Positions 9,959 to 61,160 of a DNA stretch of 64,000 bases are shown one piece after another (the first letter of the stretch is position 1; each line of letters opens with the position of its first letter). Origin of the DNA: a virus. Lineage: Duplodnaviria; Heunggongvirae; Uroviricota; Caudoviricetes. The notes under the pieces were generated by a model. It made no database searches. It was not told the DNA's origin and saw only the letters and a list, made by a program, of their open reading frames with translations. Position numbers and translations under genes: made by a program. The stretch covers positions 47,519 through 111,518 of IMG/VR virus record IMGVR_UViG_3300015177_000008; one strand, given 5' to 3'.

Positions 9959-10488
9959 CTAATTACAGACGCCAGAACAAACTAAGCAGCCTTCTTTGAT
10001 GGTCTTTTTTTTTCTGACCACATTCGCAGGATCATACCCTCCCAGACTTTTCATGACGTCCAAAGGGATCTTGCTTATAGAGTGCCCAGCGTCCTGACAG
10101 AATCCTCGAAAAACAACGAGCATACTGCCACCGGGGTTGATGTTTACTTCTACCTGACCCAGATTGACGTCAGGCTCGACAAACGCTACGCGGCCACCAG
10201 ACAGAATAATCGTCTCATTCGCACACTCTGTTGCACGCTCATACCACTTTGTATCTAGGGATTGAGGAAGGCAATTGTACCTGGCTGTCCCCATTCAGAT
10301 TTCAAAGCATCACGCTCAACGCCTATGAAATTAGGCAGCTTTGCATTGTCCTTGTTGCAGGCAACGTCAACATCAAATGTCACTCCAAGATAACGTTGAA
10401 TGGCAGAAAACAGCCAGTCAGGTGTTCTCCAGAGGTCACGAAGAGAGTTGTCGCGCTTTCGCTGTTTGATTTTTTCGGCTGCAATCAT
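9959..10488 (-). pseudogene. Phage-type DNA N6-adenine methyltransferase (Dam family), disrupted
   Basis: Two ORFs in different frames: 10255..10488 ends ...GTIAFLNP-stop where NPPY/F is expected; 9959..10294 carries the downstream LPxxLDTKWY block. Apparent internal deletion plus frameshift. Confidence 0.5.
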
Positions 10489-11639: not shown

Positions 11640-12188
11640 TTACACAATTTCAGAGGGTAATTTAAAAAATCCGTACTTATTACGTGCCTTAAAGAAGCAT
11701 TGCATCATTAAGTTTGTGTCATATAAGGCACTATGTGCTTTGGCATGATCGTATATAAAGCCAAGAGAGAAGGCCAACTCTTCAAGGCGGGGACGTTTAC
11801 CGTCTTCTGTGGCCCACAGGGAAAATAGAGTGTCAATCAATGGGATGTCTGGAAGCGAAAAACCGTAACTTTTCAGCTCATGCCTAATAAACGGAATATC
11901 GAACGCTTCGCCGTTGTGGGCTATCCAAATATCGGAAGAAGAGAGATACGAAGCGACAGATGAAGCGTGATCGGCTAGTAACGGCTCGGCGGCTAAATCT
12001 TCAAGACTGATGCCGTGTACCGCTTGCGCTTTCGGATCGATACTGCGACGCGGGTTGAACCGCATTACAAAACTATCAACCATTGTCTGTGTCTCAATTT
12101 CGTACTTCACCATTGCGATTTCAATGATTTTATGGCCTGAGAGGAAATCAAGACCTGTTGATTCGATGTCCACCCCTGTAGCAATCAC
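11640..12188 (-). CDS. DnaQ-like 3'-5' exonuclease (DEDDh)
   Basis: Exo motifs VDIESTGL, HNGEAFDIPF, HSALYDTNL. Confidence 0.7.
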   Translation of the reverse strand: MIATGVDIESTGLDFLSGHKIIEIAMVKYEIETQTMVDSFVMRFNPRRSIDPKAQAVHGISLEDLAAEPLLADHASSVASYLSSSDIWIAHNGEAFDIPFIRHELKSYGFSLPDIPLIDTLFSLWATEDGKRPRLEELAFSLGFIYDHAKAHSALYDTNLMMQCFFKARNKYGFFKLPSEIV

Positions 12189-12979
12189 TTTTTATCTCCT
12201 TTTACTGGTCGTTTGGACGGTGTGAAGATGGCAGCTTCAACATCCCACCCCCTCAAAATTCGCTGCGAGATAATGGTCGCAGTCAAGCCAACCTCTCTAG
12301 CCCATTCGGTAATTCGCTGAGTTCTGCCGCGACACTCGATCAGACGCTTACTATCTCGGTTGGCATACGTGTCGACGCTGGCGTTAAGCGCGCGATCTAA
12401 TGGCCACCCTTTCTTGATTCGATAGTGAAGAGTTGATGTCTGAATCCCGGCTCTTTTAGCCCATTGTGAGAGAGTCAGCTTTTCCCCCTTATGCTCCAAA
12501 ATTAAGTTTGAACGCGTGTTATTGGCCTGTTCTTCAAAAGTCGCCCATCTGCAATTTTCAGGTTCGTAGTCACCATTCACATCTTTGCGATCAAGAGACA
12601 TCCCCTCTGGTCGCTCTCCCATGTCAGCATAAAAGTTTTCAAATATTTGCCACCGCTCGCAGACTTTGATACCTCGGCCGCCATACCACTTATAGGCGTG
12701 ATGGGTTGGTTTTTCACATCGTTCCCGCATACCCAGCCATATACGATAAATTGGCGTTTTACTCATACCATGAGGCTTTACGCTACGGCGATGTGCGTTG
12801 TAGACACAGCCACACGATATTGTCGCCCCGTGATTTAGCTTCCCGTAACTAACCAGACAGGTGTTGCCGCAATCGCAGATGCAATCCCAAAGTCGCCCTT
12901 GTTTGTTTGAAATACCGGAATATTTAAGTGCAACCAACTTTCCAAAACGTTTACCTGTTATATCTACCGGTTGTCCCAT
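12185..12979 (-). CDS. HNH homing endonuclease
   Basis: Cys-rich N-terminus, HNH-type motif (VNGDYEPENCRWAT), two C-terminal helix-turn-helix-like repeats (TLSQWAKRAGIQTSTLHYRIKKGW / ITEWAREVGLTATIISQRILRGW). Confidence 0.65.
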   Translation of the reverse strand: MGQPVDITGKRFGKLVALKYSGISNKQGRLWDCICDCGNTCLVSYGKLNHGATISCGCVYNAHRRSVKPHGMSKTPIYRIWLGMRERCEKPTHHAYKWYGGRGIKVCERWQIFENFYADMGERPEGMSLDRKDVNGDYEPENCRWATFEEQANNTRSNLILEHKGEKLTLSQWAKRAGIQTSTLHYRIKKGWPLDRALNASVDTYANRDSKRLIECRGRTQRITEWAREVGLTATIISQRILRGWDVEAAIFTPSKRPVKGDKK

Positions 12980-12988
12980 TACTACTCC

Positions 12989-13408
12989 TTACAACTTCTT
13001 AGCGCCCTTGAGTAGTGCACTACGTACAAATTGAGCCGCTTTTTTCAAAGTTTCTTCACTGGTTTCACAGACAATCGGATCTTTCCACTTACCTGACGCA
13101 GTATTGAGAATATTGATTTGGTTGCTATCCAGACAAACAGAGATATAAAGCACCGTGCCACCAGCCAGCATCAAATGCATAGGAAACAGAGGCTTTTTAC
13201 TGTCTTCACTGAACTGAGACATGGCGATGTTAATGGCTTCACCCACTTGTGTACCAACAAGCCCCTGCGCAGTTTCGAATATGGCACGAATAGCCAGACG
13301 AGCCTCTCGATCGCTCATAAGCGACCGGGAATGTTCGTCCGCTACACGAATCAAAGCCTCTGTTGTTTTCCGATCCAGTTCATCTTCAAGCAACATTTCA
13401 CTAAACAT
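12989..13408 (-). CDS. Hypothetical protein
   Basis: 139 aa ORF. Confidence 0.45.
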   Translation of the reverse strand: MFSEMLLEDELDRKTTEALIRVADEHSRSLMSDREARLAIRAIFETAQGLVGTQVGEAINIAMSQFSEDSKKPLFPMHLMLAGGTVLYISVCLDSNQINILNTASGKWKDPIVCETSEETLKKAAQFVRSALLKGAKKL

Positions 13409-31034: not shown

Positions 31035-33374
31035 TTACTCTTCTACTGACTCGGTGGGATTGTCTTTTGATCTCCGGTCGTCGATTGCCTGTAAAGCCGC
31101 AATGATTTCAGCTAGTGGCTTCTCCCGATACATCTCGACGATCTGTGATTTGGTGTATTTCTTGTCACCAATTTCTACTCGACCGCTGGCGTTCTTTGGC
31201 AGGTATCCTTCTTCCAGCATGTACTCGACGAGCGACTCGATAACGTCGAGGCCACGAGTAGGATCGAAGTAGAATTTCCAGGTGCATTTGCCATACGGTG
31301 GTGCAACTTTGTTTTTGATGCACTCTGCGCCTACGTCCTGACCGATCTTCTCTTTCCCATCCTTCATCACCGATGCACCGAGACGGATGCGCACAGAAGC
31401 GTAAAACTTCGGTGAATCGCCGCCTGGAGACGTAGTAGGGTCGCCAAACATTACACCGATTTTTGTGCGAACCTGATTCAAGAAGATGATGCAGGCGTTG
31501 TATTTGCGTGCCCACAAAGCCAGAGTGGGGAAGTTCGCACTCGTCGCACGAGCCAGCGCCGTATTGTCGTTCATGTTTAGCTGATCTTTGTCTTTGGCAG
31601 TGCCTTCAGCCATCTTTTCGAACTTCTCGGCTTTGGAGTTCGGAACCATAGACGCAAGTGAGTCAGCCACGATACAGATAGGTGCTGATTCAGGAATAAG
31701 CTCTTCATCACGTACCAATTTAAGAATTGTGCCGATCAACTCTACAGAGTCTTCGAAGGTATCAGGCTGCTTGTATACCCACTGACCGTCATCCTCATCT
31801 GCATTCAAACCATTGGCTACAGCCAGGCCAACGTCAAAACTGTTTTCATGATCGAGGAATACCGCCAGACCATCTTGTTTTTGAGCGGAGATCATCGCTG
31901 CTGTTGCAAGGAATGTGTTGTGGCTGATAATCCCGTTAGACCAGAAAGAGTGTGTTTCCGGCATCGCTACGTCGAACGTTGGTGCTTCACCTTCCTCAAT
32001 AGCCACGACTTCGTCGTAGAACAAGTTAGAGCCAATTACCGCTGCCAGTTGTGCAAACAGATGCTCGTTAAAACGATTCTTTCTGCCAATGAAGGAGACA
32101 TAGATTTCTCGCAGTTTGTCTATTCCGACACGATCGCCGCGGCCAATAACGTGGTCTACCAGAGCGTAGTCTTCACGGGTGGTCTTGGTGAGCGACTCGT
32201 AGAGTGATTTCACTAAGCCGCTGATGTGCGGAACATAGCCTGAGTAAGTGCGGTCAAAACCAATGTCCCGTTTGGTTGCCACTGATAAACGTGCCGGAGA
32301 TTCGAAACCAATCGTTGACAGAAAAAGGTCGTAATTAGAGCCACTGAATGACAGCCGGTAATATGTATTTTCATAACCCGCGACGTGTTTTTCAGAGATA
32401 GTTGACGTAATCCCCAGATTCAGGAGCATGAGGCGAATTTGCTGTAGCAGCAGCCCACTCGCGCTCACAACCTCAATGCAGCGACCATCATTGACGTGGC
32501 ATTCCAGCTCAAAGTAGCCGCGAAGGAATGCAATTTGAGCCTCGCTATTGGCGCGACGCACACTCAACGGAACCTGCTTGCCAGCAGCTTTCTCATACTC
32601 CAGACCATATTCTTTAAAAAGCAGCGAACGCACCTCTTTGCTAAACAGCACATGGTCTTCCGAGCCGTTATGTTTTCTCGTAACTGGCATCTTGTCTGAT
32701 ACCAGCGAAATGAGGCGGTAGTACTCATCCTTGATGAAAGGATCTGTGTTAGAAAAATTCACTGAATTTTCAGAGGCCACGTATCCGTCAGCAATTAAAT
32801 AGCCCATCAGTTTTGCGATATTGGCATCCAGGTGCTGATCGCCGAATTGATGTGTGCCAACCATTGAAGGAATCGTGTCGCCTACACTGATTTTTTCAGC
32901 ATGTCGCCAGACGACATTACCTAAGTCGTCAACCACACGGATTGGGTGACGGAACGTAGCCTCGATATAACCGCCTGATGCCAGCTTAATACGCTTGAAT
33001 TTGCGACGGTTGTTCCATGTCAGGTGTGAGGTCTTCTCTATCACGCCATTTTCATTGATGAGTCCAACGTTATGCTCTACATCGCGAGTAGTGCATGTCG
33101 CTTTGTACCCTTCAATCTCAAACAACTCTTTCACTGTTACCATTCCACGCTCCGTCAGCAGCATGGTGTCTGCGGTAACACATTTCCCCGCACTTGGAGG
33201 ACCGAATACTTCGACGATACGACCACATGGGAAGCCGCCATCGTAACGACCAGAAATAGCTTTGTTTAACGGTGGAAAGCCTGTATCAATCCAATGAGTT
33301 ACTTTCTGAATTTCGTCGTTGCTACCGATTTTCTTTTTCAGAGCAAGTGCCAGTGCGGATTTTCCTTTTGCCAT
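31035..33374 (-). CDS. recA: RecA-family recombinase interrupted by an intein
   Basis: Exteins GRIVEVFGPPSAGK...TFLATAAM and FLNQVRTKIGVMFGDPTTSPGGDSPKFYASVRIRLGA resemble RecA; a 422-aa insertion splits the Walker A motif. Confidence 0.8.
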   Translation of the reverse strand: MAKGKSALALALKKKIGSNDEIQKVTHWIDTGFPPLNKAISGRYDGGFPCGRIVEVFGPPSAGKCVTADTMLLTERGMVTVKELFEIEGYKATCTTRDVEHNVGLINENGVIEKTSHLTWNNRRKFKRIKLASGGYIEATFRHPIRVVDDLGNVVWRHAEKISVGDTIPSMVGTHQFGDQHLDANIAKLMGYLIADGYVASENSVNFSNTDPFIKDEYYRLISLVSDKMPVTRKHNGSEDHVLFSKEVRSLLFKEYGLEYEKAAGKQVPLSVRRANSEAQIAFLRGYFELECHVNDGRCIEVVSASGLLLQQIRLMLLNLGITSTISEKHVAGYENTYYRLSFSGSNYDLFLSTIGFESPARLSVATKRDIGFDRTYSGYVPHISGLVKSLYESLTKTTREDYALVDHVIGRGDRVGIDKLREIYVSFIGRKNRFNEHLFAQLAAVIGSNLFYDEVVAIEEGEAPTFDVAMPETHSFWSNGIISHNTFLATAAMISAQKQDGLAVFLDHENSFDVGLAVANGLNADEDDGQWVYKQPDTFEDSVELIGTILKLVRDEELIPESAPICIVADSLASMVPNSKAEKFEKMAEGTAKDKDQLNMNDNTALARATSANFPTLALWARKYNACIIFLNQVRTKIGVMFGDPTTSPGGDSPKFYASVRIRLGASVMKDGKEKIGQDVGAECIKNKVAPPYGKCTWKFYFDPTRGLDVIESLVEYMLEEGYLPKNASGRVEIGDKKYTKSQIVEMYREKPLAEIIAALQAIDDRRSKDNPTESVEE
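31917..33182 (-). mobile_element. Intein with LAGLIDADG homing-endonuclease domain inside recA
   Basis: Starts with Cys directly after GPPSAGK, ends ...SHN followed by Thr; LAGLIDADG-type blocks LMGYLIADGYV and LRGYFELECHV. Confidence 0.7.
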
Positions 33375-47993: not shown

Positions 47994-49256
47994 ATGCCTT
48001 TTTTAATTTTCATTATTATACTACTGCTCACCGTGATTTTTTGGGATTGGGTTGTTTTAAATGGTCAAATTGTTGGAACATTGGCTACAGCATTTGCTTT
48101 TATAGCAACAGCATGGAATGCCTACGAAGCGAGAAAAAGTGCAAAAGCAGCTTTTTCAGCCCTTCAATTAACAACAGAATCATTGTTCGAAATGCGAAAG
48201 AGTGCATTTAAACAATGGTTTGATTCCTTATTAAATCAACATGATGAGCTATGTCTTCTTGCAAAACAAATTATCGATAAACGCAAAATTAATTTAAACA
48301 GCGATGAGTTACATAGACTATATTACCCATTGGTAAAACAGCATGAGGTAATACAGTATGTGAAGCATATTATTAATATTTTTGAGTATGTGGATAGTTC
48401 ATTTTATATTGATGGGGAATGTCTAAAGGAAAAAAGAGCGTATGTGTCACAATTAATTTTCAAAATCCCACCTCAGATGAAGTTGATTATTGCTATCTTT
48501 GGATTAAAGATCGATTATTGTGAACATATTAATTCGGGAAAACTGTGTTGTTTATTAAATAAATATGATTTTTTCAATGATGAAATATTTTTTGATGATG
48601 CTTATTCAGATATGCCTTATCTGGATGCATTCATAAACCTTAGATTCAACAAAATATTCAAATCTCGAATGATAAATTATTTTGATAATATCATTAAAAG
48701 TTATTATGTTCCATCGGACGTTAAAAGGGACTGGATGTTTCGAGACCCAAAGCTCGTACCGTCGGTTCTTATGAATTATAAAACTCCTTGTTCTCCTATA
48801 ATTAATGATTACTTTGAGAAGTTGCCTTTACATGTAAGAGACTACTTTGAGAAAGTACTTAAAACTGCGCATGATAGAGTTACTAATTTTGATGCTTACA
48901 TCCCACGCCTTATTGGTTGTTCAATCGTACAACGTTACGAAGATGTACCTTCCGAAAAAAACAGGTTAAATGACAGGAACGATGTAATAGCTATGGCTGA
49001 AGATTACATCGAGAAAAGGAGATCTAATCAACTAGATTACAGACTTGAAAATATATACTTTAAGAGTGACAAAGATATAATCCCAGGCCACAATTTGATT
49101 GTGGCATTTGATGACTATGAATATAAATTAGCACTAATTAAGATAAATGAAAATAAAGATAACGGCAGTCTTTTACATCGAATTTACATTGAATCTTGTG
49201 ACATGGTTAAAGAATATAAGCGCGAAATATTAAAACTGGGCGACTATGTAAAGTAA
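47994..49256 (+). CDS. AT-rich membrane-anchored protein of unknown function
   Basis: 420 aa; two N-terminal TM helices then an Ile/Lys/Asn/Tyr/Phe/Asp-rich domain; GC clearly lower than the backbone; followed by a strong terminator. Confidence 0.5.
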   Translation: MPFLIFIIILLLTVIFWDWVVLNGQIVGTLATAFAFIATAWNAYEARKSAKAAFSALQLTTESLFEMRKSAFKQWFDSLLNQHDELCLLAKQIIDKRKINLNSDELHRLYYPLVKQHEVIQYVKHIINIFEYVDSSFYIDGECLKEKRAYVSQLIFKIPPQMKLIIAIFGLKIDYCEHINSGKLCCLLNKYDFFNDEIFFDDAYSDMPYLDAFINLRFNKIFKSRMINYFDNIIKSYYVPSDVKRDWMFRDPKLVPSVLMNYKTPCSPIINDYFEKLPLHVRDYFEKVLKTAHDRVTNFDAYIPRLIGCSIVQRYEDVPSEKNRLNDRNDVIAMAEDYIEKRRSNQLDYRLENIYFKSDKDIIPGHNLIVAFDDYEYKLALIKINENKDNGSLLHRIYIESCDMVKEYKREILKLGDYVK

Positions 49257-57861: not shown

Positions 57862-57916
57862 CCTGCTTCCGTATATATTTAATAAGTTACTTATTATTTA
57901 TATATACAGAAGCAGG
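57862..57916. repeat. 55-bp element with 16-bp terminal inverted repeats (copy 2 of 2)
   Basis: cctgcttccgtatata ... tatatacagaagcagg; core contains ataagttacttat. Confidence 0.5.
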
Positions 57917-58027
57917 CATAACTTGTCGTCTTAGACGCCCAGAAGCTCTACACTTTGAGCCTGTTAAATTGATTAAAAACTTATGTGTAAAATAGAACGC
58001 ATTAGTCAGTAGCTAAGAGATGCAATA

Positions 58028-58795
58028 ATGGACGATTTATCGGTATACGCGAGATCATTGGATAAGGCTAAATACTATGTTTATTGTCTCTATGATACAG
58101 AAGACAAGATGAAAAGACCGTTTTACATAGGAAAAGGCAAATCGACTCGTTGTCTCGATCACATCAAGTATCCCGATGACTCTCCCAAATCCATGCGGAT
58201 CAAAGAACTTTTGGCTAATAAAAAATTAGGCATAGATATTCTTCGTCATGGTATGGATGAAACCACAGCCAAACTTGTTGAGGCGACATGCATCGACCTT
58301 ATGGGGGTCGGAGAGCTTACGAATAAGGTACGAGGAAGTGGTTCCATGATGGGCAGAATATCACTGGACGCCTACCATCACTTAGTGCTGCAAGAGGAAA
58401 CTGAAATTGCTCCTGAGCACGCCGGTCTTGCCTTCCTGCTAAACAGCACCTACAAGTCAGGAATGTCCGCTCTGGCATTATATGAAGCTACGCGTGGCGT
58501 ATGGGCAAAGGTTCCAAGAGACGAGAATCTCAAATATGCCTACGCTACATATGGTGGGCTGATAATGGAAGTTTATCAGATTGAATGCTGGGTCAAAGCC
58601 GGTTCTCAGCAGTACTTTACAAGGGATATAGCTCTTGGCCCCGACACAAAACGTTATGAATTTGTTGGCAGAATAGCCGATGAGCATATTAGAAAACTGT
58701 ATGTAGGCAAATTAATCAAGAAGCCACCAAGCTACGGTAGCCCTTTTGTGAAGGTTGGGGTGGTTAGGACTGAACATAGTGTTAGTGCGGCATAA
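58028..58795 (+). CDS. GIY-YIG endonuclease (free-standing, homing-endonuclease-like)
   Basis: GIY-YIG-like N-terminus YYVYCLYD...PFYIGKGKSTRCLDH; isolated plus-strand gene with its own terminator. Confidence 0.55.
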   Translation: MDDLSVYARSLDKAKYYVYCLYDTEDKMKRPFYIGKGKSTRCLDHIKYPDDSPKSMRIKELLANKKLGIDILRHGMDETTAKLVEATCIDLMGVGELTNKVRGSGSMMGRISLDAYHHLVLQEETEIAPEHAGLAFLLNSTYKSGMSALALYEATRGVWAKVPRDENLKYAYATYGGLIMEVYQIECWVKAGSQQYFTRDIALGPDTKRYEFVGRIADEHIRKLYVGKLIKKPPSYGSPFVKVGVVRTEHSVSAA

Positions 58796-58811
58796 AGCTG
58801 ACACTGTAGTT

Positions 58812-58849
58812 ATGCATTGGCGCAATATACGCGCCAATGCATGATTTTT
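58812..58849. terminator. Bidirectional rho-independent terminator
   Basis: atgcattggcgc aatata gcgccaatgcat then gaTTTTTaa, between convergent genes. Confidence 0.6.
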
Positions 58850-59924: not shown

Positions 59925-60021
59925 CTTATATGTGATATAGCCTAAATGCCTACGGCTACGGTGTAAAGGTTAAATGGTAGGTTGTGGTTAACAATTGGCA
60001 ATCATTGCTTGTATTTGCCTG

Positions 60022-60073
60022 TTGAAAAAAGTAACAATGACCTCTATATTACAAGTACGGTGATATGCCGTAC
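60022..60073 (+). promoter_or_regulatory. Sigma70-like promoter plus palindromic operator of the toxin-antitoxin operon
   Basis: TTGAAA - 17 nt - TATATT followed by palindrome gtacgg tgatat gccgtac. Confidence 0.5.
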
Positions 60074-60193
60074 ACAATTTGATAATGCACACGTAATGGG
60101 CTATAGCCTTTTAAAGTAATTTTTGAGTCGAAAACTCAGTTTGAACAGAGGAGATTGATGGCCTTCCTACATCACGGCCATCAGGAGGAATAC

Positions 60194-60463
60194 ATGTCAG
60201 CACTAAAAAAGCAGCGCATCGATTTGAGATTAACCGATGACGATAAAAGCATCATCGAGGAAGCTGCCGCAATGTCTAACCAGAGCATTACTCAGTTTAT
60301 GGTTAGCAGTGCATCTGAACGTGCCGTGAAAGTTATAGAGCAACACCGTAGACTAGTTCTGAATGAAGAATCCTGGAATCTGGTTATGGACGCTATAAGC
60401 AATCCTCCGGCACCGAACGATAAGCTGAAACGAGCTGCTAATCGTCTGAAAAGCATGGAGTAG
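60194..60463 (+). CDS. DUF1778-type antitoxin (TacA-like)
   Basis: ATG at 60194 after AGGAGG; 89 aa MSALKKQRIDLRLTDDDKSIIEEAA...; directly upstream of a GNAT gene. Track ORF starts upstream. Confidence 0.65.
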   Translation: MSALKKQRIDLRLTDDDKSIIEEAAAMSNQSITQFMVSSASERAVKVIEQHRRLVLNEESWNLVMDAISNPPAPNDKLKRAANRLKSME

Positions 60464-60470
60464 TTTACTC

Positions 60471-60992
60471 GTGAGCAATACGACGATAGAGATTTTCTCT
60501 GGAGAGAAAGATTATGATCTAAACGGTTTTGATTGCGGCGAAGAGTCACTAAACGCCTTTTTAGCCAACCACTTAAAAAGGCAGCATGAGGGAAAAATTC
60601 TTCGTGCTTATGTGCTTTGCACTCAAGAAGAAAGGCCAAAAGTGTTAGGGTATTACACTTTGTCAGGTAGTTGTTTTGAAAAGGAGTCCTTACCTTCACG
60701 AAGCAAACAAAAGAAGGTTCCTTATCGGAATGTTCCAAGTGTTACTTTGGGTAGGCTGGCTTTGGACAAGTCCCTTCAAGGTCAAGGATTTGGCTCAATG
60801 CTTGTAACACATGCAATGCGCGTTGTGTACAATGCATCTCTTGCTGTAGGCATTCATGGACTTTTCGTTGAGGCGTTAAATGACAAAGCCAAGGCGTTTT
60901 ATAAAAGTTTAGGCTTTATCCAGCTGGTTGGTAACAACGAGCGTTCTTTGTTCTATCCTACAAAATCTATCGAAAAATTGTTCGAAGAATAA
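60471..60992 (+). CDS. GNAT-family acetyltransferase toxin (TacT-like)
   Basis: 173 aa with GNAT core (QGQGFGSMLVTHAM...); GTG start 8 nt after the antitoxin stop; hairpin gttcccctca tt tgaggggaac follows. Confidence 0.7.
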   Translation: MSNTTIEIFSGEKDYDLNGFDCGEESLNAFLANHLKRQHEGKILRAYVLCTQEERPKVLGYYTLSGSCFEKESLPSRSKQKKVPYRNVPSVTLGRLALDKSLQGQGFGSMLVTHAMRVVYNASLAVGIHGLFVEALNDKAKAFYKSLGFIQLVGNNERSLFYPTKSIEKLFEE

Positions 60993-61160
60993 TGTGTTCC
61001 CCTCATTTGAGGGGAACTTCGACATCACCAACCACAAACCCTCTCTCCCATCGTATTGTGAAAAAGGATTTGGCGTTCGGTTTCTTCAGTCATTACATCA
61101 TTATTGCTGATATAGATAGGCTCAGCTCCATCGCAGAACAATACGCTGGCGGTTTGTGGT

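What the first reader, a model, noticed from the sequence alone, without database searches (positions are those of the whole stretch)
12185..12979. Free-standing HNH endonuclease (and a GIY-YIG endonuclease at 58028..58795) inserted between conserved genes
Together with the LAGLIDADG intein this gives three different homing-endonuclease classes in one window. The GIY-YIG gene is on the opposite strand to its neighbours with its own terminator, typical of mobile insertions.
Basis: partly seen in the sequence, partly recalled or inferred. Interest (0 to 1): 0.4.

Follow-up and report, generated by a model that had tools for sequence, protein, structure and literature searches.

The report
One homing endonuclease, one defence nuclease
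In this E. coli phage-plasmid the "HNH" gene looks like a selfish homing-endonuclease gene that arrived with part of the neighbouring exonuclease gene, while the "GIY-YIG" gene is not a homing endonuclease but a known type of anti-phage restriction enzyme in a swappable defence slot.

Summary
The window is an SSU5-type E. coli phage-plasmid, 100% identical over 11640..13408 to plasmid NZ_CP117002.1. Both ORFs exist as described.

**GIY-YIG gene, 58028..58795(+).** It is homologous along its length to PD-T4-3/CMoRE, a type IV restriction enzyme for hydroxymethylcytosine DNA (PADLOC 1.3e-23; PDB 9U7U 2e-15). In relatives the same slot holds a candidate defence gene (PDC-S31) on the other strand.

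**Verdict.** The window holds two homing-endonuclease classes (HNH-like and the RecA intein), not three. Both genes are new members of known kinds.

The parts
12185..12979 (-). Free-standing HNH-like (His-Me finger, PacI-type) endonuclease gene, 264 aa. N-terminal Cys-rich strand region; a beta-beta-alpha core at residues 127-154 with the motif [D/E]130-R131-x-[D/N]133...Y138...N142...N154; two C-terminal helix-turn-helix repeats.
11800..12993 (.). Imported (co-converted) tract: the HNH gene plus the first ~370 nt of the exonuclease gene. Breakpoints lie at 11799/11819 and 12983/12994.
   Evidence: Sliding identity: 58-73% to E. coli phage Cyrano but 90-99% to Klebsiella phage GArcari-2022b inside the tract; 97-100% versus 56-83% outside it. 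Informative-site runs. Among 7 E. coli carriers the tract shows 2.9 differences/kb and 0 informative sites, against 12.7-18.3/kb and 50 informative sites in the flanks.
11640..12188 (-). DnaQ-like 3'-5' exonuclease gene. It is the host gene next to the insertion and the probable target. In this allele it starts at a GTG that overlaps the HNH stop codon (GTGA), with AAGGAG at 12196..12201 inside the HNH 3' end. The HEG-linked allele block is 11820..12186.
   Evidence: Pfam RNase_T 1.3e-22. Junction alignment. Exo motifs are intact in the translation. HEG-less plasmids carry the same block: pPK8276-110kb and pKPN20-2, and 28 E. coli records of which only 7 have the gene.
12985..12988 (-). GGAG ribosome-binding site. 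It serves the exonuclease gene in empty alleles and the HNH gene in this one.
   Evidence: Alignment of filled and empty junctions.
12989..13408 (-). Conserved upstream neighbour (phrog_5373, function unknown). The right-hand recombination breakpoint lies at its stop codon.
58028..58795 (+). PD-T4-3/CMoRE-like single-gene defence nuclease: N-terminal GIY-YIG domain (Y17, Y19, Y33, R41, conserved Glu) plus a C-terminal domain homologous to CMoRE's modification-sensing domain.
   Evidence: Pfam LEM-3_GIY-YIG 5.5e-7. PADLOC PD-T4-3 1.3e-23 over residues 11-231. PDB 9U7U/9U75, 2e-15 over residues 12-230. Function of CMoRE from PMC12923530. Subfamily alignment.
57927..58849 (.). Swappable cassette (promoter region, defence gene, terminator). 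Phage Cyrano has an 816-bp cassette here encoding a PDC-S31 candidate defence protein on the other strand. SSU5 and pJN2-26 have a three-gene block.
   Evidence: BLAST breakpoints 57926 and 58850. Annotations. PADLOC PDC-S31 3e-41 and 2e-33. Flank identities.
58808..58846 (+). Terminator-like hairpin followed by TTTTT, downstream of the defence gene.
   Evidence: Sequence. RNA fold -25.1 kcal/mol, z -5.67.
57862..57916 (.). Imperfect AT-rich palindrome at the left edge of the cassette, present in relatives. Role unknown.
   Evidence: Self-inverted BLAST matches in Cyrano, SSU5 and PhiR41_1. DNA fold z -5.7.

Best explanation
The finding covers two unrelated things.

**(A) The 264-aa gene at 12185..12979 is a free-standing homing-endonuclease gene of an HNH-related (His-Me finger) family.**
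- Shown: the usual catalytic His is an invariant Arg, and an invariant loop Tyr is present.
- Inferred: the Tyr does the His's job, as in R.PacI.
- Shown: the gene is wedged between the ribosome-binding site and the coding sequence of the DnaQ-like exonuclease gene. It carries a replacement ribosome-binding site and GTG start for that gene, so the host gene stays expressed.
- Shown: it is absent from most related phage-plasmids.
- Shown: it came into the E. coli backbone together with the first ~370 nt of a foreign exonuclease allele.
- Shown: that gene-plus-allele block is much less diverse than the backbones carrying it.
- Shown: the gene is under purifying selection.
- Inferred: when an element with the gene meets one without it in the same cell, the enzyme cuts or nicks the naive exonuclease allele. 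The site would be some 100-370 nt inside that gene, because some gene-less plasmids carry only that part of the linked allele.
- Inferred: repair copies the resistant allele, usually with the endonuclease gene, from the carrier.

**(B) The 255-aa gene at 58028..58795 is a PD-T4-3/CMoRE-type type IV restriction endonuclease.**
- It is carried as a self-contained cassette (own strand, own terminator) in a slot next to the partition genes. Related elements hold other candidate defence genes in that slot.
- Inferred by homology: it cleaves incoming phage DNA that contains modified cytosine. That would protect the host and the resident phage-plasmid from T-even-like phages.
For: **(A) HNH-like gene**
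- Empty junction in Cyrano and SSU5.
- Exact junction: 12 nt replaced by 797 nt.
- Mosaic identity profile and sharp breakpoints.
- 7 of 168 E. coli and 104 of 278 Klebsiella plasmid matches carry the gene.
- 8 of 204 complete E. coli genomes with the locus carry it.
- Tract 2.9 differences/kb with 0 informative sites, against flanks at 12.7-18.3/kb with 50 informative sites; Fisher p 0.004.
- dN/dS 0.083, and similar dS for the gene (0.14) and the linked exonuclease block (0.17).
- Gene-less plasmids carry the linked block with different 5' boundaries.
- beta-beta-alpha unit with invariant R131/Y138/N142/N154.
- C-terminal HTH repeats.
- The family is scattered over 695 phage records, often in more than one copy.
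- Free-standing phage HEGs are known to cut at a distance and co-convert flanking DNA (PMC2790892, PMC2988022).

**(B) GIY-YIG gene**
- PADLOC PD-T4-3 1.3e-23.
- PDB 9U7U/9U75 alignment across both domains.
- Y-x-Y, YIG Tyr, Arg and Glu conserved.
- CMoRE biochemistry.
- PDC-S31 genes occupy the same slot in Cyrano and SSU5.
- Precise cassette boundaries.
- DefenseFinder has already reported PD-T4-3 on SSU5-group phage-plasmids of E. coli and Shigella.
Against: **(A)**
- No enzymatic evidence exists.
- The canonical catalytic His is missing, and no Pfam HNH model matches.
- One PacI-like phage HNH was tested for exclusion activity in Skunavirus; the passage I read names only two other enzymes as showing a strong effect.
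- The seven E. coli carriers share one exonuclease protein, so the E. coli entry may be a single event followed by ordinary recombination.
- Gene-less plasmids with the linked block could equally arise by loss of the gene.
- The right-hand breakpoint lies within ~10 bp of the insert, which is unusually tight for gap repair.

**(B)**
- Identity to the characterised enzymes is only about 30%.
- The acidic autoinhibitory loop is 5 residues shorter and keeps only two of the four acidic residues, throughout this subfamily.
- Substrate specificity may therefore differ.
- PDC-S31 is only a candidate system.
Confidence: 0.66

Rival explanations
1. The HNH-like protein is a catalytically dead, domesticated DNA-binding protein, for example a regulator. 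The mosaic around it would reflect ordinary homologous recombination between co-resident phage-plasmids, not endonuclease-driven homing.
For: The catalytic His is replaced by Arg in every family member examined. No Pfam HNH match. Two HTH repeats. His-Me fingers that lost catalysis exist, such as Smad MH1. The backbone recombines freely anyway, with 50 informative sites in the flanks.
Against: The invariant Tyr138, Asn142, Asn154 and acidic residue 130 form exactly the set used by the active His-less enzyme PacI. The foreign tract is centred on this gene with sharp breakpoints, and it crosses a genus-level backbone divide at 58-73% identity, where ordinary recombination should be rare. The sporadic, multi-copy distribution in unrelated phages is typical of selfish nuclease genes.
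Confidence: 0.17
2. The HNH-like enzyme acts mainly as an exclusion weapon. It would cut competing SSU5-type elements or phages carrying sensitive exonuclease alleles, to the benefit of its carrier. Homing would then be a by-product.
For: Marker exclusion by free-standing phage HEGs is documented. The linked resistant exonuclease allele is three times commoner in E. coli than the gene itself: 28 records against 7. That is what selection for resistance would produce.
Against: Sequence alone cannot separate this from homing. The same cleavage and repair steps are involved.
Confidence: 0.1
3. The GIY-YIG gene is, a free-standing Seg-like GIY-YIG homing endonuclease.
For: It has a GIY-YIG domain, lies on the opposite strand with its own terminator, and is present in only 123 of 732 plasmids that match the flanks.
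Against: The whole protein, including the C-terminal domain, aligns with the type IV restriction enzyme CMoRE. There are no NUMOD or HTH modules. The site is never empty in the relatives examined; it holds other genes. The flanks carry no foreign tract like the one at the HNH locus; only the last ~100 bp on the left are divergent. Close homologues are lone chromosomal genes in diverse Gammaproteobacteria.
Confidence: 0.04

Closest known systems
Free-standing HNH homing endonucleases of T4-like phages (MobE; also the GIY-YIG enzyme SegG)
   Same: An intergenic gene next to a DNA-metabolism gene, variably present among relatives. Inferred: it cleaves inside the neighbouring gene at a distance from its own insertion site. 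Flanking sequence is co-converted, so that the resistant allele travels with or without the endonuclease gene (PMC2790892, PMC2988022).
   Different: The host is a phage-plasmid, not a lytic phage. The active site lacks the canonical His. The transfer documented here crosses between Klebsiella-type and E. coli-type backbones. No biochemical data exist.
R.PacI and PacI-like His-Me finger nucleases (group 20 of Jablonska et al. 2017; 'PacI-like' free-standing HNH genes in Skunavirus phages)
   Different: No sequence-level match to PacI. The protein has additional N-terminal Cys-rich and C-terminal HTH modules. PacI is a restriction enzyme with an 8-bp site. Correspondence of the Tyr was inferred from motif position, not from a superposition.
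PD-T4-3 / CMoRE (PDB 9U7U, 9U75; Liu et al. 2026, PMC12923530)
   Same: Single-gene system of ~255 aa with an N-terminal GIY-YIG domain. It has the extra Tyr (Y-x-Y), the YIG Tyr, and the catalytic Arg and Glu, and the C-terminal domain is homologous. It is already found on SSU5-group phage-plasmids by DefenseFinder.
   Different: About 30% identity. The alpha2-alpha3 acidic lid is 5 residues shorter, with PDDS in place of DDDE. A conserved C-terminal tail (K-K-x-x-S-[YFH]-G-x-P-F-V-x-V-G) marks this subfamily. Specificity for hydroxymethylcytosine is untested.
I-TevI / Seg family GIY-YIG homing endonucleases
   Same: Shares the GIY-YIG catalytic domain.
   Different: The C-terminal domain is unrelated. 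No empty-site polymorphism and no co-conversion tract were found. The homologues are cellular defence genes.

Membership tests
HNH / His-Me finger homing endonuclease | beta-beta-alpha-metal fold | tested here: inconclusive
HNH / His-Me finger homing endonuclease | Catalytic His (general base) at the end of strand 1 | tested here: not met
   The position holds Arg131, invariant in 35 homologues.
HNH / His-Me finger homing endonuclease | Structural Asn and a metal-binding Asn/His in the helix | tested here: met
   N142 and N154 are invariant. The acidic residue 130 is D or E in nearly all sequences.
HNH / His-Me finger homing endonuclease | Match to curated HNH profiles (Pfam HNH, HNH_3 and others) | tested here: not met
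   0 of 35 family members match at E <= 1. Only PHROG families named HNH endonuclease match.
HNH / His-Me finger homing endonuclease | Presence/absence polymorphism at a fixed site between conserved genes | tested here: met
HNH / His-Me finger homing endonuclease | Co-conversion of flanking markers with the gene | tested here: met
   The ~370-nt exonuclease block travels with the gene.
HNH / His-Me finger homing endonuclease | Site-specific cleavage or nicking of the allele that lacks the gene | not testable with these tools
   Needs purified protein and empty-allele substrates.
PacI-like His-Me finger (His-less) | Tyr in the loop between the two strands substituting for His | tested here: inconclusive
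   Invariant Y138 lies in the loop 132-142. Equivalence to the PacI Tyr was not checked by superposition.
PacI-like His-Me finger (His-less) | Cys4 zinc sites flanking the catalytic unit | tested here: inconclusive
   Nearly invariant C33, C35, C37, C56, C58, C88, C143 and invariant C107. Their geometry was not examined.
GIY-YIG homing endonuclease (I-TevI/Seg) | GIY-YIG catalytic domain | tested here: met
   Pfam LEM-3_GIY-YIG, 30.1 bits against a cut-off of 27.
GIY-YIG homing endonuclease (I-TevI/Seg) | Sequence-specific DNA-binding domain (NUMOD, HTH or Zn finger) after a linker | tested here: not met
   No such Pfam hit. The C-terminal half aligns with CMoRE's modification-sensing domain.
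GIY-YIG homing endonuclease (I-TevI/Seg) | Empty cognate site in relatives, and co-conversion of flanks | tested here: not met
   The slot always holds other genes in the relatives examined. Flanks are 93-100% identical to a non-carrier up to the cassette, except the last ~100 bp on the left at 77%.
PD-T4-3 / CMoRE type IV restriction endonuclease | Match to the system's profile and to the crystallised proteins over both domains | tested here: met
   PADLOC PDLC04031, 1.3e-23, residues 11-231. 9U7U/9U75, 2e-15, residues 12-230.
PD-T4-3 / CMoRE type IV restriction endonuclease | 'GIYxY-YIG' motif with three Tyr, plus catalytic Arg and Glu | tested here: met
   Y17, Y19, Y33, R41 and the Glu of VEATCID align with the CMoRE residues. 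All are conserved in 15 subfamily members.
PD-T4-3 / CMoRE type IV restriction endonuclease | Acidic autoinhibitory loop (four consecutive acidic residues) between alpha2 and alpha3 | tested here: not met
   The loop is 5 residues shorter, with PDDS in place of DDDE, and its acidity varies across the subfamily. The paper says only 'most' members have the loop.
PD-T4-3 / CMoRE type IV restriction endonuclease | Cleavage of 5hmC/5ghmC DNA and protection against T-even phages | not testable with these tools
   Needs plaque assays and nuclease assays.

The most novel reading that the evidence does not exclude
The 264-aa protein belongs to a very large phage-borne clade: more than 7,700 database clusters and 695 phage records. 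No Pfam model recognises it, and annotators often call it 'hypothetical'. The clade would be a Tyr-dependent, PacI-type His-Me finger family working as homing endonucleases. This member would target the DnaQ-like exonuclease gene of SSU5-type phage-plasmids at a distance from its insertion site. It would thereby drive replacement of exonuclease alleles across genus-level backbone lineages (Klebsiella-type to E. coli-type). That would be the first homing system described in phage-plasmids, and a natural case where the resistant allele outruns the endonuclease gene.
Probability: 0.4. Interest if true: 0.55.

Novelty: new member of a known kind. Interest (0 to 1): 0.38.

Why it matters
**HNH-like gene.** Phage-plasmids of the SSU5 group are widespread in clinical Enterobacteriaceae, and how they exchange genes matters for tracking them. 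A homing endonuclease that moves a block of a replication-associated gene between Klebsiella-type and E. coli-type elements is a concrete, testable mechanism of targeted exchange. My literature search found no paper that mentions homing endonucleases together with these elements. The case also flags a large, poorly annotated nuclease family whose catalytic chemistry (Arg and Tyr in place of His) has not been tested.

**GIY-YIG gene.** The correction matters for annotation. A GIY-YIG domain on the 'wrong' strand in a phage is not necessarily selfish DNA. Here it is a defence cargo that probably protects the host from T-even-like phages. It sits in a hotspot that could be mined for further defence genes.

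Tried and rejected
- **Pfam and NCBIfam on the HNH-like protein.** No HNH hit. Scanning 35 homologues also found none.
- **PDB sequence searches.** The single-sequence search returned only chance crystallin matches. The profile search returned only chance ribosomal-protein and sex-pheromone-protein matches.
- **Foldseek against PDB.** Nothing with E <= 0.001.
- **PacI structure paper (PMC2886031).** Not held, so PacI residues came from reviews.
- **Consensus terminator scan.** It missed the hairpin after the GIY-YIG gene. Direct folding showed it.
- **The repeat finder on the imperfect palindrome at 57862..57916.** Nothing found. Folding and BLAST showed it.
- **Second comparator for dN/dS.** K. 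variicola p_AC125 (86% identity) was dropped because the locus has no intact ORF, probably through assembly errors.
- **HNH as a packaging (terminase-associated) enzyme.** Rejected because it lies among replication and nucleotide-metabolism genes and is absent from most relatives.
- **Second copy of the family in the window.** None found.
- **Defence-island context of chromosomal GIY-YIG homologues.** Only suggestive: variable regions near mutS, Fic, RelA/SpoT-like genes and transposases.
Full report
**What the window is**

Megablast of both regions finds Escherichia phages CMS-2020a, PhiR41_1 and Cyrano at 97-99% identity. Salmonella phage SSU5 and Klebsiella phage-plasmids are more distant. 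The stretch 11640..13408 is 100% identical to E. coli plasmid NZ_CP117002.1. The window encodes a Rep3-type initiator, ParA, DNA polymerase III alpha, ribonucleotide reductase, RecA, ligase and lysis genes. It is therefore an SSU5-group phage-plasmid of E. coli.

**Observation**

Both ORFs exist at the stated coordinates.

- **GIY-YIG domain.** It passes Pfam's cut-off (LEM-3_GIY-YIG, 30.1 against 27 bits).
- **HNH label.** This rests on PHROG family names (phrog_374, E 2e-79). No Pfam or NCBIfam HNH model matches the protein or any of 34 homologues.
- **LAGLIDADG intein.** It lies in the RecA-like ORF 31035..33374.

**The HNH-like gene is a presence/absence polymorphism with a co-conversion tract**

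*Junction.* In Cyrano and SSU5 the exonuclease gene directly follows the phrog_5373 gene. In the window, 797 nt (12187..12983) replace 12 nt of the empty allele.

- In gene sense the empty allele reads TAA-GGAGTTCTG-ATG ACA ACG ATT, which is the exonuclease start.
- The filled allele reads TAA-GGAGTAGTA-ATG GGA CAA, which is the HNH start. It ends AAA GGA GAT AAA AAG TGA.
- The exonuclease then starts at the GTG that overlaps this stop codon. An AAGGAG lies 8 nt upstream, inside the HNH coding sequence.
- So the insert takes over the host gene's ribosome-binding site and supplies a new one.

*Mosaic identity.* I compared the window with Cyrano and with Klebsiella phage GArcari-2022b in 100-nt steps.

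- Outside 11775..12990 the window is 97-100% identical to Cyrano and 56-83% identical to GArcari.
- Inside the exonuclease part (11775..12171) it is 58-73% identical to Cyrano and 90-95% to GArcari.
- The HNH gene itself is 94-99% identical to GArcari.
- Informative sites place the breakpoints between 11799 and 11819, and between 12983 and 12994.

*Frequency.*

| Collection | Records with the locus | Records with the gene |
|---|---|---|
| PLSDB, Escherichia | 168 | 7 |
| PLSDB, Klebsiella | 278 | 104 |
| Complete E. coli genomes | 204 | 8 |

*The block is younger than its backbones.*

- The seven E. coli carriers come from four continents and several hosts, and share one exonuclease protein.
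- Within the tract they differ at 2.9 sites/kb, all singletons.
- In the flanks they differ at 12.7-18.3 sites/kb, with 50 parsimony-informative sites (Fisher p 0.004).
- So one young block sits on older, recombining backbones.

*Selection.* Between the E. coli and Klebsiella copies the gene has 22 synonymous and 7 non-synonymous differences. That gives dN/dS 0.083 and dS 0.14. The linked exonuclease block has dS 0.17, so the two have diverged together.

*The linked allele without the gene.*

- E. coli pPK8276-110kb has the E. coli-type first ~100 nt of the exonuclease gene. It then carries the window's foreign block up to the same 3' boundary, with no HNH gene.
- K. pneumoniae pKPN20-2 shows the same pattern with a different 5' switch point.
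- The core of the block (11820..12086) occurs at >=99% identity in 28 plasmid records, matching the 28 Escherichia records hit; only 7 of the Escherichia records have the gene.
- Two readings fit. Either repair of a break inside the exonuclease gene copied the resistant allele without reaching the endonuclease gene, or the gene was later lost by recombination with an empty allele.
That resembles SegG and MobE, which cut at a distance and co-convert flanking DNA (citation of Liu et al. 2003).

**What kind of enzyme**

*Family.* More than 7,700 database clusters match at E <= 1e-5. tblastn finds it in 695 phage records, including Staphylococcus, Pseudomonas, Bacillus, Enterococcus and Vibrio phages, often twice per genome.

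*Conserved residues.* Alignment of 35 members shows invariant R87, Y99, G100, G103, C107, W110, F113, F116, D119, M120, R131, Y138, N142, W145 and N154.

*Structure.*

- The AlphaFold model (pLDDT 90.8) has strand 127-131, loop, strand 143-147 and helix 148-153. This is a beta-beta-alpha unit.
- [D/E]130-R131 lies at the end of strand 1, Y138 in the loop, N142 before strand 2, and N154 just after the helix.
- In canonical HNH enzymes the residue after the acidic metal ligand is the catalytic His (I-HmuI D74, H75, N96). Here it is always Arg.
- PacI is the known His-less member of the superfamily. A loop Tyr takes the His role, and Asp and Asn hold the metal.
- Foldseek finds nothing significant, and I could not superpose residues. 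The PacI-type chemistry is therefore an inference.
- The C-terminal third is two HTH repeats, which is plausible for DNA-site recognition.
- PacI-like free-standing HNH genes have been noted in Skunavirus phages and regarded as probable homing endonucleases.

**The GIY-YIG gene is a defence gene**

*Homology.*

- PADLOC's PD-T4-3 model matches residues 11-231 at 1.3e-23.
- The protein aligns over residues 12-230 with PDB 9U7U and 9U75 at 2e-15.
- Those structures are CMoRE (PD-T4-3), a single-protein type IV restriction endonuclease. It degrades 5hmC- and 5ghmC-containing DNA and protects E. coli from T-even phages.

*Match to the defining features.*

- The window protein keeps Y17, Y19, Y33, R41 and the catalytic Glu.
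- Its loop is 5 residues shorter and reads PDDS instead of DDDE. This holds across its whole subfamily, which also has a conserved C-terminal tail.
- Its closest relatives (51-79% identity) are lone ~246-aa genes. Many are on chromosomes of Gammaproteobacteria, in variable regions.

*The slot.*

- It has fixed edges at 57926 and 58850.
- PhiR41_1 and one CMS-2020a record share the window's cassette.
- Cyrano has an 816-bp cassette encoding a 267-aa protein on the other strand. SSU5 and pJN2-26 have a three-gene block beginning with a DUF2971 protein.
- The Cyrano and SSU5 proteins match the PADLOC candidate system PDC-S31 (3e-41 and 2e-33).
- 123 of 732 plasmids matching the flanks carry the window's cassette.
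- Flanks are 93-100% identical between carrier and non-carrier right up to the cassette. The exception is the last ~100 bp on the left, the palindrome region, at 77%. There is no imported tract like the one at the HNH locus.
- A DefenseFinder survey has already listed PD-T4-3 among the systems on SSU5-group phage-plasmids of E. coli and Shigella.

They describe an autonomous cassette, not a homing element.

**Verdict**

It comes with the twist of a His-less, PacI-like active site and a resistant host-gene allele that spreads further than the endonuclease gene.
- The GIY-YIG part is not supported. That gene is a divergent PD-T4-3/CMoRE-type restriction enzyme in a defence hotspot.
- Both are new members of known kinds. 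The window contains two homing-endonuclease classes (HNH-like and the LAGLIDADG intein), not three.

Noticed in passing
window 9959..10488 (deletion at about 10258..10269): The phage N6-adenine methyltransferase gene is broken in this window. About 88-89 bp are missing between short direct repeats, which removes the NPPY catalytic region and splits the gene into 77-aa and 111-aa ORFs. The 198-aa gene is intact in phage Cyrano; the 88-89 bp are also present in GArcari and in six other E. coli plasmids (their MTase genes are only partly covered by the fetched loci).
   Followed up: partly
window 31035..33374 (-): The RecA-like gene carries a LAGLIDADG intein (Pfam RecA, LAGLIDADG_3, Intein_splicing). 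The intein is itself polymorphic. It is present in PhiR41_1, Cyrano and Klebsiella phage vB_KpnS_p4727. It is absent from both CMS-2020a records, where the match covers 46% of the query in two pieces spanning 1,074 bp.
   Followed up: partly
window 57862..57916: An imperfect AT-rich palindrome (DNA fold z -5.7) lies exactly at the left edge of the swappable defence cassette. It is found in Cyrano, SSU5 and PhiR41_1. It might be a recombination or regulatory site, or a partition site, but its role is unknown.
   Followed up: partly
window 59983..61000: A second variable slot lies on the other side of parA. The window and Cyrano carry an RHH antitoxin plus a GNAT (KacT-like) toxin pair at 60155..60992. 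PhiR41_1 and SSU5 have unrelated genes there, and their similarity to the window stops at 59982.
   Followed up: no
plasmid NZ_CP019002.1 (E. coli), exonuclease gene; compare window 11640..12188: Some E. coli plasmids without the HNH gene have an exonuclease 5' region only ~84-87% identical to the HEG-linked block. This is a further allele class. The 5' third of this gene is hypervariable across the whole plasmid group.
   Followed up: no
window 47994..49256 (+): A 420-aa ORF on the opposite strand to most neighbours has no Pfam match. It could be another accessory or cargo gene.
   Followed up: no
plasmid CP050276.1 (K. pneumoniae), HNH locus: One Klebsiella record matches the HNH protein in two pieces. 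This suggests a frameshifted copy, either a decaying endonuclease gene or a sequencing error.
   Followed up: no
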